From: a virus
Lineage: Duplodnaviria > Heunggongvirae > Uroviricota > Caudoviricetes
DNA: 7,625 nt
Virus record (IMG/VR): IMGVR_UViG_2778261660_000014
Location: 1-7,625 of that record
Strand: one strand, 5' to 3'
Below are positions 1-3,000 of the stretch, in pieces. Numbering within the stretch: the stretch's first letter is position 1; each line of letters opens with the position of its first letter. Made by a program: the position numbers.

Positions 1-3000
1 TAACGAAGTTTGCGTAACAGCATTTTGCTCTACGAGTTTGCCAGCCTCCCCCAGTGGCTGGCTTTTTTATGTCCGTAGCGTCAAAGCAGCAATGTCGCTG
101 GGGCGTCGTGCAATTGGCGTTGAGCTGGAGACTGAACGTTTTGAGCAGACGGTCAGGGAAGTTCAGGATTTAGTCAGTCAGAACGGATGATATTGCAGGA
201 TTAGTTACGTACCGTTATTATCCTGCGCCCGGCCCTTTAGCTCAGTGGTGAGAGCGAGCGACTCATAATCGCCAGGTCGCTGGTTCAAATCCAGCAAGGG
301 CCACCATATCACATACCGCCATTAGCTCATCGGGACAGAGCGCCAGCCTTCGAAGCTGGCTGCGCGGGGTTCGAGTCCTCGATGGCGGTCCATTATCTGC
401 ATTATGCGTTGTTAGCTCAGCCGGACAGAGCAATTGCCTTCTGAGCAATCGGTCACTGGTTCGAATCCAGTACAACGCGCCATATTTATTTACCAGGCTC
501 GCTTTTGCGGGCCTTTTTTATATCTGCGCCGGGTCTGGTGCTGATTACTTCAGCCAAAAGGAACACCTGTATATGAAGTGTATATTATTTAAATGGGTAC
601 TGTGCCTGTTACTGGGTTTTTCTTCGGTATCCTATTCCCGGGAGTTTACGATAGACTTTTCGACCCAACAAAGTTATGTCTCTTCGTTAAATAGTATACG
701 GACAGAGATATCGACCCCTCTTGAACATATATCTCAGGGGACCACATCGGTGTCTGTTATTAACCACACCCCACCGGGCAGTTATTTTGCTGTGGATATA
801 CGAGGGCTTGATGTCTATCAGGCGCGTTTTGACCATCTTCGTCTGATTATTGAGCAAAATAATTTATATGTGGCCGGGTTCGTTAATACGGCAACAAATA
901 CTTTCTACCGTTTTTCAGATTTTACACATATATCAGTGCCCGGTGTGACAACGGTTTCCATGACAACGGACAGCAGTTATACCACTCTGCAACGTGTCGC
1001 AGCGCTGGAACGTTCCGGAATGCAAATCAGTCGTCACTCACTGGTTTCATCATATCTGGCGTTAATGGAGTTCAGTGGTAATACAATGACCAGAGATGCA
1101 TCCAGAGCAGTTCTGCGTTTTGTCACTGTCACAGCAGAAGCCTTACGCTTCAGGCAGATACAGAGAGAATTTCGTCAGGCACTGTCTGAAACTGCTCCTG
1201 TGTATACGATGACGCCGGGAGACGTGGACCTCACTCTGAACTGGGGGCGAATCAGCAATGTGCTTCCGGAGTATCGGGGAGAGGATGGTGTCAGAGTGGG
1301 GAGAATATCCTTTAATAATATATCAGCGATACTGGGGACTGTGGCCGTTATACTGAATTGCCATCATCAGGGGGCGCGTTCTGTTCGCGCCGTGAATGAA
1401 GAGAGTCAACCAGAATGTCAGATAACTGGCGACAGGCCCGTTATAAAAATAAACAATACATTATGGGAAAGTAATACAGCTGCAGCGTTTCTGAACAGAA
1501 AGTCACAGTTTTTATATACAACGGGTAAATAAAGGAGTTAAGCATGAAGAAGATGTTTATGGCGGTTTTATTTGCATTAGCTTCTGTTAATGCAATGGCG
1601 GCGGATTGTGCTAAAGGTAAAATTGAGTTTTCCAAGTATAATGAGGATGACACATTTACAGTGAAGGTTGACGGGAAAGAATACTGGACCAGTCGCTGGA
1701 ATCTGCAACCGTTACTGCAAAGTGCTCAGTTGACAGGAATGACTGTCACAATCAAATCCAGTACCTGTGAATCAGGCTCCGGATTTGCTGAAGTGCAGTT
1801 TAATAATGACTGAGGCATAACCTGATTCGTGGTATGTGGGTAACAAGTGTAATCTGTGTCACAATTCAGTCAGTTGACAGTTGCCTGTCAGACTGAGCAT
1901 TTGTTAAAAAAATTTCGCATGGTGAATCCCCCTGTGTGGAGGGGCGACTGGTGAAAAATCCTTGCTTGTGATTCATTATCGACACGGGTTCGGTGGTACC
2001 AAGCCGAACTCACCGGGAGGCACCCGGCACCATGCAGTATACAGAGATTAGGCATATACCAAGGCCTCTCATAGCAGGGGCCTTTTTACATGTAAAAAAA
2101 GCCCGAGTGGGTTCGGGCAATTGCATGAGATACTCGTTTTAATAATCGAAAGCATTTTAACCAGGATTCATAAGGCTGCGCAACTGCGCGGCCTTTTTCG
2201 TATTTCGGGCTGTAGTCTTCCTTCTGCCATTGTCCTGTAACTTCCGGACTTCAGCCCGCTCCTCATCTGACTCACACATTATCCCGACCGGGAGGATTCA
2301 TGGCATTTAAACACTATGACGTGGTCAGGGCGGCGTCGCCGTCAGACCTTGCGGAACGAATAACTCAAAAACTGAAGGAAGGGTGGCAGCCTTATGGTAG
2401 TGCGCTGATTTCGACAGCTGGTTATGGTGCGGAGTTCATCCAGCCAGTTGTGAGTGAGGGGAGCATCTCATCACCAGAGGAGCCAGGCAACCGTCCGACG
2501 ACCTCAGCGCCTTCTGTTGCGCCAGAATATTACTATGTGATCGCGCTTGCTGGTCAGTCCAATGGTATGTCATACGGTGAGGGACTGCCATTACCGGATA
2601 CATTCGACAGTCCTGATCCACGAATTAAACAGTTAGCGCGTCGCAGTACGGTGACACCGGGAGGTGCCGCCTGTAAGTATAACGACATCATTCCGGCGGA
2701 CCATTGTCTGCATGATGTGCAGGACATGAGCCGCCTTAACCATCCGAAAGCGGACCTGTCAAAGGGGCAGTACGGAACCGTGGGGCAAGGGCTGCATATC
2801 GCCAAAAAATTGCTGCCGTTTATACCGGCGAATGCGGGCATTCTGCTGGTTCCGTGCTGTCGTGGTGGTTCAGCGTTCACCACCGGAGCCGATGGCACAT
2901 ACAGTGACGCGAGTGGTGCCTCGGAGAATTCAACCCGCTGGGGTGTGGACAAGCCGCTGTATAAGGACCTTATCGGTCGAACAAAAGCAGCACTGAAGAA

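What the first reader, a model, noticed from the sequence alone, without database searches (positions are those of the whole stretch)
92..190. Methyltransferase C-terminal motif without the rest of the gene
The 32-codon ORF ends with a motif that looks like the C-terminus of N4/N6 DNA methyltransferases (LGRRAIGVELE...), but the upstream in-frame sequence runs through the terminator hairpin and lacks catalytic motifs. This suggests a deletion or recombination scar between the Q/pR' module and the tRNA-stx module, which is a mosaic junction.
Basis: inference. Interest (0 to 1): 0.4.

Follow-up and report, generated by a model that had tools for sequence, protein, structure and literature searches.

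The report
Dead methylase gene stub in Stx2 phage
The short ORF is the leftover last tenth of a phage DNA methyltransferase gene, cut off where two phage modules were joined just upstream of the Shiga toxin 2 genes; public annotation already marks it as a pseudogene, so it is ordinary.

Summary
The window is the late region of a Stx2a prophage, in the order tR'-type terminator, small ORF, ileZ-argN-argO, stx2AB, nanS-p, lysis genes. Window 80-190 is the last 36 codons plus stop of a 352-aa beta-class N6/N4 DNA methyltransferase (PF01555). That gene is intact at the same position, directly before the tRNAs and stx2, in phiP27, Stx2a_WGPS2, Stx2_499 and Stx2c phages (94.7-97.4% DNA identity, tblastn E about 1e-16). 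Homology starts abruptly at base 80, one residue after the AdoMet motif FMGSG. The DPPY catalytic motif and 316 N-terminal codons are absent. Window 1-77, which carries the terminator hairpin at 40-68, is 100% identical to Stx1a phages, which then diverge into the stx1 upstream region. A sharp mosaic junction therefore lies at bases 78-79. The ATG at 92 is an internal Met codon of the ancestral gene and has no Shine-Dalgarno sequence. RefSeq PGAP already annotates window 77-190 as "DNA methylase, incomplete, missing N-terminus". PHROG 14488 consists of this 50-aa ORF, and a 2023 paper notes 50-aa and 352-aa versions. The junction occurs in 542 of 5426 complete E. coli genomes. Interest is low.

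The parts
1..77 (+). Right end of the Q933-type Q/pR'/tR' module (left arm of the junction)
   Evidence: 100% identical over window 1-77 to Stx1a phages (BP-4795, YYZ-2008 and others). These diverge completely from base 78 into the stx1 upstream region. Intact-methylase phages show no similarity here.
40..68 (+). Intrinsic-terminator-like hairpin (GCCAGCC, 9-nt loop, GGCTGGC) followed by T6. It is the last terminator of the pR' leader.
   Evidence: The fold gives dG -16.6 kcal/mol with z -3.3. The corresponding bases are annotated 'possible rho-independent terminator' in VT2-Sakai and phage 06-3462. The consensus scan missed it because the loop is 9 nt.
78..79 (.). Recombination/deletion junction (GC), assignable to neither parent
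   Evidence: The left partner's match ends at 77 and the right partner's match starts at 80 in every record listed.
80..190 (+). 3' remnant of a beta-class N6/N4 DNA methyltransferase gene: codons 317-352 plus stop of a 352-codon gene. It is a pseudogene.
   Evidence: 94.7-97.4% DNA identity to the 3' end of intact genes. tblastn matches residues 316-352 only, E 4e-16. PGAP annotates window 77-190 as 'DNA methylase, incomplete, missing N-terminus'.
92..190 (+).
   Evidence: The ATG is the internal Met321 of the intact protein and is Leu in the WGPS2 allele. The 20 nt upstream contain no Shine-Dalgarno sequence.
38..190 (+). 50-codon TTG ORF, deposited in GenBank as 'putative DNA methylase' and catalogued as PHROG 14488. 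This is an annotation artefact: the first 13-14 codons are read through the terminator.
   Evidence: Only residues 14-50 have methylase homology.
193..221 (+). Putative tRNA promoter pT (TTGCAG, 17 nt, TATTAT), directly after the remnant's stop codon
   Evidence: Annotated at the corresponding bases in VT2-Sakai and 06-3462. It is conserved after the intact gene too. It was not detected by the consensus scan, because the -35 matches only 3 of 6.
231..482 (+). Phage tRNA genes: ileZ (CAT anticodon, 231-306), argN (TCG, 316-392) and argO (TCT, 406-482)
   Evidence: ARAGORN, Rfam tRNA hits, and GenBank names.
573..1813 (+). stx2A (573-1532) and stx2B (1544-1813), the cargo of the right-hand module
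   Evidence: ORFs and annotation of identical sequence in PA2 and phi346.

Best explanation
Window 80-190 is a non-functional 3' stub of a phage DNA methyltransferase gene. It keeps the last 36 of 352 codons plus the stop.

In the widespread arrangement, a full-length late-operon methylase sits directly upstream of the ileZ-(argN)-argO tRNA genes and stx2. This is seen in Stx2e phage phiP27, long-tailed Stx2a phages and Stx2c phages. In non-Stx lambdoids such as cdtI, the methylase sits directly upstream of the lysis genes.

In the ancestor of the 933W/Sakai/PA2/O104:H4-type Stx2a phages, one illegitimate recombination (or deletion) joined the end of a Q933-type Q/pR'/tR' module to the inside of that gene. 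The left break is 9 nt past the last terminator's T-run. The right break is one codon after the AdoMet-binding motif I (FMGSG). About 1.4 kb was removed, comprising a small ORF and 316 methylase codons including the DPPY catalytic motif.

The stub cannot methylate DNA. It is carried along as a spacer and leader between the terminator and the tRNA promoter, and is transcribed passively when Q lets RNA polymerase read from pR' through the terminators into the tRNAs and stx2AB.

Shown here: the homology, the breakpoint, the synteny and the absence of motifs. Inferred: the direction of the event, that it happened once, and the lack of translation or function.
For: - **Homology limited to the C-terminus.** tblastn of the intact protein hits only residues 316-352 in the window, in PA2 and in Sakai, and hits nothing in Stx1 phage BP-4795.
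- **Intact gene is a real methylase.** It scores E 1e-43 against PF01555, with DPPY at residue 35 and FMGSG at residue 310. It is related to solved beta-class adenine MTases RsrI, CcrM, MboIIA and DpnA.
- **Synteny.** The intact gene ends 40 nt before ileZ in phiP27, WGPS2, Stx2_499 and an Stx2c phage, exactly as the stub does.
- **Sharp three-way junction at 78-79.** The phage collection holds 213 records with the full junction, right-only matches starting at 80 and left-only matches ending at 77.
- **Same junction in both stub alleles** (PA2-type and 933W-type), which suggests a single event.
- **No Shine-Dalgarno before ATG 92 or TTG 38**, in contrast to stx2A and stx2B. ATG 92 is an internal Met of the parent gene and is Leu in one intact allele.
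- **Substitution pattern.** Between the two stub alleles, 7 of 8 changed nucleotides lie in amino-acid-changing codons. Intact alleles compared with each other show 4-6 synonymous against 3-5 non-synonymous.
- **Existing annotation.** PGAP independently calls it a partial pseudogene.
- **No RNA family.** No Rfam family overlaps 80-190.
Against: - The reading frame is still open in every allele seen, and several GenBank records and PHROG 14488 treat it as a protein. However, only a few near-clonal alleles exist, so an open 36-codon frame is expected by descent.
- The substitution counts are too small for a formal dN/dS test.
- No expression or ribosome-profiling data were examined, so translation of a 32-aa peptide is not excluded.
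- The direction (truncation of an intact gene rather than extension) is inferred from the fact that a 36-codon C-terminal piece cannot be the ancestor of a 352-aa enzyme family.
Confidence: 0.9

Rival explanations
1. The ORF is a genuine small gene. A 32-aa (ATG 92) or 50-aa (TTG 38) peptide would be translated from the late transcript and have acquired a function of its own, for example as a methylase-derived regulatory or interfering peptide.
For: The frame is open in all alleles seen. Several GenBank submissions annotate it as a CDS, and it forms its own PHROG.
Against: - Neither start has a Shine-Dalgarno sequence.
- TTG 38 abuts the terminator stem, so the first 13 codons are terminator sequence.
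- ATG 92 is an inherited internal Met and is Leu in one intact allele.
- The two stub alleles differ mostly by amino-acid changes: 5 replacements against 1 silent codon.
- PGAP flags it as a pseudogene.
- The fragment is about one and a half secondary-structure elements of a Rossmann fold and is unlikely to fold alone (inference).
Confidence: 0.04
2. The stub is retained because its RNA or DNA has a cis role. It could act as an upstream element or spacer for the tRNA promoter pT, as a 5' leader needed for tRNA processing, or as a homology arm that lets the tRNA-stx2 cassette exchange between phages by homologous recombination with intact methylase genes in co-resident prophages.
For: - The stub sits directly between a terminator and the annotated tRNA promoter.
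- Bases 80-230 are shared at 95-97% with otherwise unrelated long-tailed Stx2 phages.
- Intact copies are common in E. coli: 597 of 5426 genomes, with up to 6 places per genome.
- The cluster of changes at 132-136 reproduces states seen in intact alleles, which looks like gene conversion.
Against: - All 8 differences between the two stub alleles over window 1-230 lie inside the stub, while the flanks are invariant (p about 0.003). That is the opposite of what a constrained cis-element would show.
- No Rfam family and no notable structure was found in the stub.
- Serving as a recombination substrate is a consequence of homology, not a selected function.
Confidence: 0.06
3. The resemblance to methyltransferase C-termini is a chance match of a short, low-information peptide.
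For: Pfam alone is below threshold (13.4 bits against 26.7; no hit for the 32-aa version).
Against: DNA identity to intact genes is 94.7-97.4% over 151 nt with identical downstream synteny. tblastn gives E 4e-16 and PHROG methyltransferase families give E down to 6e-14.
Confidence: 0

Closest known systems
Full-length late-region DNA methylase of lambdoid and Stx phages (phiP27 L24 CAC83542, Stx2a_WGPS2 YP_009909071, Stx2_499 BCI49441; 352 aa; Pfam PF01555 N6_N4_Mtase, beta-class, DPPY type)
   Same: The last 36 codons and the stop are homologous (81-97% amino-acid identity, 95-97% nucleotide identity). The downstream neighbours are the same: pT promoter, ileZ, argN/argO, stx2AB. The gene also sits in the same place in the Q-dependent late operon.
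   Different: The window lacks codons 1-316, including catalytic motif IV (DPPY) and AdoMet motif I (FMGSG). In their place is the tR' terminator of a different Q module. The stub cannot be an enzyme.
RefSeq/PGAP pseudogene 'DNA methylase / site-specific DNA-methyltransferase, incomplete; partial in the middle of a contig; missing N-terminus' (e.g. EEL45_RS15735 in E. coli O157:H7 TR01); GenBank 50-aa 'putative DNA methylase' (PA2 AKI85942); PHROG 14488
   Same: This is the identical feature. The PGAP coordinates correspond to window 77-190, and the 50-aa CDS to window 38-190.
   Different: Nothing differs. The 50-aa CDS annotation and the PHROG family treat a gene fragment plus terminator read-through as a protein, which the junction analysis here does not support.
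Module junctions of mosaic lambdoid phages (abrupt transitions in similarity at module boundaries, produced by illegitimate or short-homology recombination)
   Same: The identity switches between partners within 2 nt. The left arm is shared with Stx1a phages and the right arm with intact-methylase Stx2 phages. The junction lies just past a terminator, at a functional module boundary.
   Different: One breakpoint falls inside a gene rather than between genes, leaving a recognisable stub.

Membership tests
N6_N4_Mtase (Pfam PF01555), beta-class amino DNA methyltransferase | Catalytic motif IV (D/S)PP(Y/F) | tested here: not met
   DPPY is at residue 35 of the intact protein. tblastn of the intact protein finds only residues 316-352 in the window and in 3 kb upstream of it in PA2.
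N6_N4_Mtase (Pfam PF01555), beta-class amino DNA methyltransferase | AdoMet-binding motif I FxGxG | tested here: not met
   FMGSG is at residues 310-314 of the intact protein. Homology in the window starts at residue 317 (base 80). The bases before it are terminator sequence.
N6_N4_Mtase (Pfam PF01555), beta-class amino DNA methyltransferase | Score above the Pfam gathering threshold | tested here: not met
   The 50-aa ORF scores 13.4 bits against a 26.7 cut-off, and the 32-aa ORF gives no hit. Intact homologues score 150 bits.
N6_N4_Mtase (Pfam PF01555), beta-class amino DNA methyltransferase | Sequence homology (common descent) of the retained segment with family members | tested here: met
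   tblastn E 4e-16 with 89% identity over 37 aa. DNA identity is 94.7-97.4%. PHROG methyltransferase families give E 6e-14 to 6e-9.
Gene remnant / pseudogene | Only part of a gene is present, and the gene is intact at the syntenic position in relatives | tested here: met
   PGAP gives the same call.
Gene remnant / pseudogene | No native translation start or ribosome-binding site | tested here: met
   The native start is deleted. ATG 92 is an internal Met, and there is no GGAG-like sequence within 20 nt of ATG 92 or TTG 38.
Gene remnant / pseudogene | Relaxed selective constraint | tested here: inconclusive
   Between stub alleles, 7 changed nucleotides lie in replacement codons against 1 in a silent codon. 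Intact alleles show about equal numbers. All 8 differences in window 1-230 fall in the stub (p about 0.003). The numbers are too small for dN/dS, and gene conversion is an alternative explanation.
Gene remnant / pseudogene | Not translated and without phenotype | not testable with these tools
   This needs ribosome profiling, proteomics and a deletion mutant.
Mosaic module junction of lambdoid phages | Abrupt switch of similarity partners at a single point, with each flank shared with different phage lineages | tested here: met
   Left-only matches cover 1-77 (Stx1a phages, 100%). Right-only matches cover 80-230 (intact-methylase phages). 213 records hold the full junction.

The most novel reading that the evidence does not exclude
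The stub may not be inert. As a 111-nt patch of near-identity to intact methylase genes in co-resident lambdoid prophages, joined to the conserved tRNA block, it could act as the left homology arm through which the tRNA-stx2 cassette is swapped or gene-converted between short-tailed and long-tailed Stx phages. That would explain why all variation between the 933W-type and PA2-type sequences in this 230-nt stretch is concentrated in the stub. A less likely alternative is that it is translated into a 32-aa peptide with its own activity.
Probability: 0.1. Interest if true: 0.3.

Novelty: already known. Interest (0 to 1): 0.1.

Why it matters
It matters little beyond bookkeeping.

- **Module boundary.** It fixes, to within 2 nt, the left boundary of the tRNA-stx2 cargo module in the clinically dominant 933W/Sakai/O104:H4-type Stx2a phages. 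It also shows that their Q/pR'/tR' module is the same one found in Stx1a phages.
- **Annotation.** The 50-aa "DNA methylase/methyltransferase" CDS in many GenBank phage records, and PHROG 14488, should be read as a pseudogene fragment and not counted as a phage methyltransferase.
- **Typing marker.** The junction could distinguish stub-bearing Stx2 phages from those with an intact methylase.

Tried and rejected
- **Pfam on the 32- and 50-aa peptides.** The result was sub-threshold or empty. It was uninformative alone and was superseded by DNA and tblastn comparisons.
- **Consensus terminator and promoter scan of 1-700.** It missed both the hairpin at 40-68 (9-nt loop) and the annotated pT promoter (weak -35), finding only the terminator after argO. 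The hairpin was confirmed by folding instead.
- **Rfam at a permissive threshold.** Only the three tRNAs and sub-threshold noise were found, with nothing in 80-190.
- **Search for degraded methylase codons upstream of the junction, in any frame, in PA2, Sakai and BP-4795.** None were found, so frameshift decay was rejected in favour of a clean junction.
- **Search for a third right-hand partner of the 1-77 block in the phage collection.** Only Stx1-type and stub-type continuations were found. Which of the two continuations is ancestral to the left block could not be decided.
- **Literature.** Plunkett 1999 (PMC93574) is not held. PMC6266700, on the pR' region, does not mention the methylase. 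PMC10462455 does mention it.
- **Large protein-database searches and structure prediction.** These were not run, because the answer was already unambiguous and a 36-residue fragment would not give a meaningful model.

Full report
**What the window is.** The first 572 bases are 100% identical to many short-tailed Stx2a phages (PA2, P13374 and other O104:H4-type phages, phi346, VT2phi_272). The window carries these features in order:
- a hairpin terminator
- the small ORF in question
- three tRNA genes: ileZ (CAT, 231-306), argN (TCG, 316-392) and argO (TCT, 406-482)
- stx2A (573-1532) and stx2B (1544-1813)
- nanS-p (2300-4237)
- the lysis genes

In PA2 the antiterminator Q gene ends about 210 bp upstream of window base 1.

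**Checking the observation.** The ATG at 92-94 and TGA at 188-190 delimit a 32-codon ORF, MSLGRRAIGVELETERFEQTVREVQDLVSQNG. It is nested in a 50-codon TTG ORF at 38-190. The upstream in-frame codons run through a hairpin with stem 40-46/56-62, a 9-nt loop and T6 at 63-68. Its dG is -16.6 kcal/mol, with z -3.3 against shuffles. VT2-Sakai and phage 06-3462 annotate the same bases as a possible rho-independent terminator.

Pfam on the peptide alone is sub-threshold (PF01555, 13.4 bits against 26.7). Every other comparison is decisive:
- tblastn of the 50-aa ORF finds residues 14-50 at 86-92% identity at the C-terminus of annotated full-length DNA methylases in phiP27, Stx2_499, Stx2_EH1846 and Stx2a_WGPS2 (E 2e-14 to 7e-14).
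- More distant copies appear in Stx2c phages and in cdtI, mEp460, SfV and phiKO2.
- The methyltransferase PHROGs 6952, 3008 and 67 are hit at E 6e-14 to 6e-9.

The LGRRAIGVELE motif is at the start of the 32-codon ORF rather than its end. Homology begins four codons upstream of the ATG.

**The intact gene.** In phiP27 (L24), Stx2a_WGPS2 and Stx2_499, a 1059-bp gene ends 40 nt before ileZ, exactly where the stub ends. An Stx2c phage has the same arrangement. In the non-Stx phage cdtI, the homologue sits directly before the lysis genes.

The 352-aa product matches PF01555 N6_N4_Mtase at E about 1e-43 across the whole domain. It has DPPY at residue 35 (motif IV) and FMGSG at 310-314 (motif I). 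This is the circularly permuted beta-class order, as established for RsrI, MboIIA and CcrM. Those are also its closest solved relatives.

**The breakpoint.** blastn of window 1-700 against the three intact-methylase loci starts at window base 80 in each case and runs through the tRNAs into stx2A (91-98% identity). A column-by-column comparison shows random-level identity before base 80 and near-identity after it.

A sensitive search of window 1-230 against 50,697 phage records gives three clean classes:
- 213 records cover at least 80% of window 1-230; those listed match bases 1-230 in full (933W, Sakai, Min27, PA2 and O104:H4 types).
- Some records match only 80-230 or 80-221. These are the intact-methylase phages, including 1720a-02, Stx2a_1447, phiP27 and Stx2c phages.
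- Some records match only 1-77 at 98.7-100%. These are Stx1a phages such as BP-4795, YYZ-2008 and Shigella phage 75/02.

In BP-4795 the sequence after base 77 runs directly into the stx1 upstream region. The reciprocal search from BP-4795 again breaks at the base equivalent to window 77 in all Stx2a phages. The junction is therefore at bases 78-79 (GC). Only a 2-nt TC at 81-82 is common to all three sequences.

tblastn of the intact protein against the window, against 3 kb upstream of it in PA2, and against Sakai finds only residues 316-352. No degraded upstream codons appear in any frame. By DNA homology the stub is codons 317-352 plus the stop, which is 10% of the gene. It starts two codons after the last glycine of motif I.

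Between the conserved pR' block and the junction, PA2 has about 220 bp, whereas intact phages have about 1420 bp (a small ORF plus the methylase). The event was thus a replacement or deletion of about 1.4 kb. The 933W-type and PA2-type alleles share the identical junction, which points to a single ancestral event.

**Is the stub a gene?** Several lines say it is not:
- ATG 92 is the internal Met321 of the parent protein and is Leu in the WGPS2 allele.
- No Shine-Dalgarno-like sequence precedes ATG 92 (TCCGTAGCGTCAAAGCAGCA) or TTG 38. By contrast, stx2A and stx2B have AAGGA and AAGGAG.
- TTG 38 abuts the terminator stem.
- The two stub alleles differ at 8 nucleotides, 7 of them in amino-acid-changing codons (5 replacements, 1 silent codon). 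Intact alleles compared with each other show 4-6 silent against 3-5 replacement changes. This suggests relaxed constraint, but the numbers are too small for a formal test.
- No Rfam family overlaps the stub.
- RefSeq's PGAP independently annotates the bases equivalent to window 77-190 as a pseudogene: [quoted passage not shown].

**How it most likely works.** The stub does nothing enzymatic, because it lacks both the catalytic and the cofactor-binding motifs.
- *Inferred:* it is a passively transcribed spacer between the last pR'-leader terminator (40-68) and the annotated tRNA promoter pT (193-221). It would be read when Q-modified RNA polymerase runs from pR' into the tRNAs and stx2AB. This is the established model for 933W-type phages, cited in PMC6266700 and PMC7547250.
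- *Shown:* homology, breakpoint, synteny and missing motifs.
- *Inferred:* the direction of the event, that it happened once, and the absence of translation.

**Prior knowledge.**
- GenBank records for PA2, PA5 and other PA phages, ArgO145, ST2-8624, phi346 and 06-3462 already label the 32- or 50-codon ORF "(putative) DNA methylase/methyltransferase".
- PHROG 14488 is a 50-residue family made of exactly this ORF. The intact protein aligns only to its positions 14-50.
- PMC10462455 (2023) reports that sequences downstream of Q in Stx2a phages fall into two clusters of putative 50-aa proteins and one cluster of 352-aa proteins.
- The junction is common. An 81-nt probe spanning it is found at 80% coverage or more in 542 of 5426 complete E. 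coli genomes. The equivalent probe from the intact gene is found in 597.

**Verdict.** The feature is an ordinary gene remnant at a phage module junction and is already annotated. Novelty: already known. Interest: low.

The one mildly interesting residue is that all 8 differences between the two stub alleles across window 1-230 lie inside the stub (p about 0.003 under uniformity). Some of them reproduce states of intact alleles. This hints at gene conversion with intact paralogues in co-resident prophages. I did not follow it up.

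Noticed in passing
window 80-190 vs L006 (VT2-Sakai) 1543-1653: All 8 nucleotide differences between the PA2-type window and the 933W/Sakai-type sequence over window 1-230 lie inside the 111-nt methylase stub, so the flanks 1-79 and 191-230 are invariant. Four of them cluster at 132-136 and match states found in different intact alleles (window resembles WGPS2, Sakai resembles phiP27). This suggests relaxed constraint and/or gene conversion from intact paralogues.
   Followed up: partly
window 193-221: A putative tRNA promoter 'pT' (TTGCAG, 17 nt, TATTAT) begins 3 nt after the stub's stop codon. It is annotated in VT2-Sakai and 06-3462 and is conserved after the intact methylase too. 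The consensus scan did not detect it.
   Followed up: partly
window 495-522: A terminator-like hairpin plus T-run lies directly after argO and about 50 nt before stx2A. VT2-Sakai also annotates it, and the identical sequence is present in the intact-methylase phage Stx2_499. Late transcription must read through it to reach stx2.
   Followed up: no
L003 (phiP27) 3155-3408; L007 (Stx2c_2409) 2655-2887: phiP27 and the Stx2c phage carry only ileZ and argO. argN is missing between them, whereas the window, WGPS2 and Stx2_499 have all three tRNAs.
   Followed up: no
L011 (E. coli O157:H7 TR01, NZ_CP033605.1) 1143-1481: This genome has Q, the methylase stub and the three tRNAs, but no stx2A is annotated after argO. 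Only a partial hypothetical pseudogene on the opposite strand is annotated. This may be an stx-disrupted or stx-negative relative of the phage.
   Followed up: no
window ~2100-2300 and 6489-7625: The window departs from PA2 from about base 2100, between stx2B and nanS-p. Its last ~1.1 kb is not covered by the closest Stx2a phages. Bases 7450-7625 match lambda-like phages (HK630, PhiR26_1) at 95-96%. These are further mosaic junctions in the lysis-distal part of the window.
   Followed up: partly
upstream of window base 1 (L002 2778-3023 minus strand; L009 2278-2523 minus strand), reaching window 1-23: An 81-codon antisense ORF overlapping the pR'/tR' leader (BP-4795 ORF39, and a PHANOTATE call in phi346) ends inside window 1-23. 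It is probably an annotation artefact over a non-coding leader, but it was not examined.
   Followed up: no
PHROG 14488 / GenBank 50-aa CDS (window 38-190): A public phage protein family (phrog_14488, 50 positions, 'DNA methyltransferase') consists of this pseudogene fragment plus 13 codons of terminator read-through. Automated pipelines (e.g. Pharokka in phi346) therefore propagate a 'DNA methyltransferase' call for a non-enzyme.
   Followed up: yes
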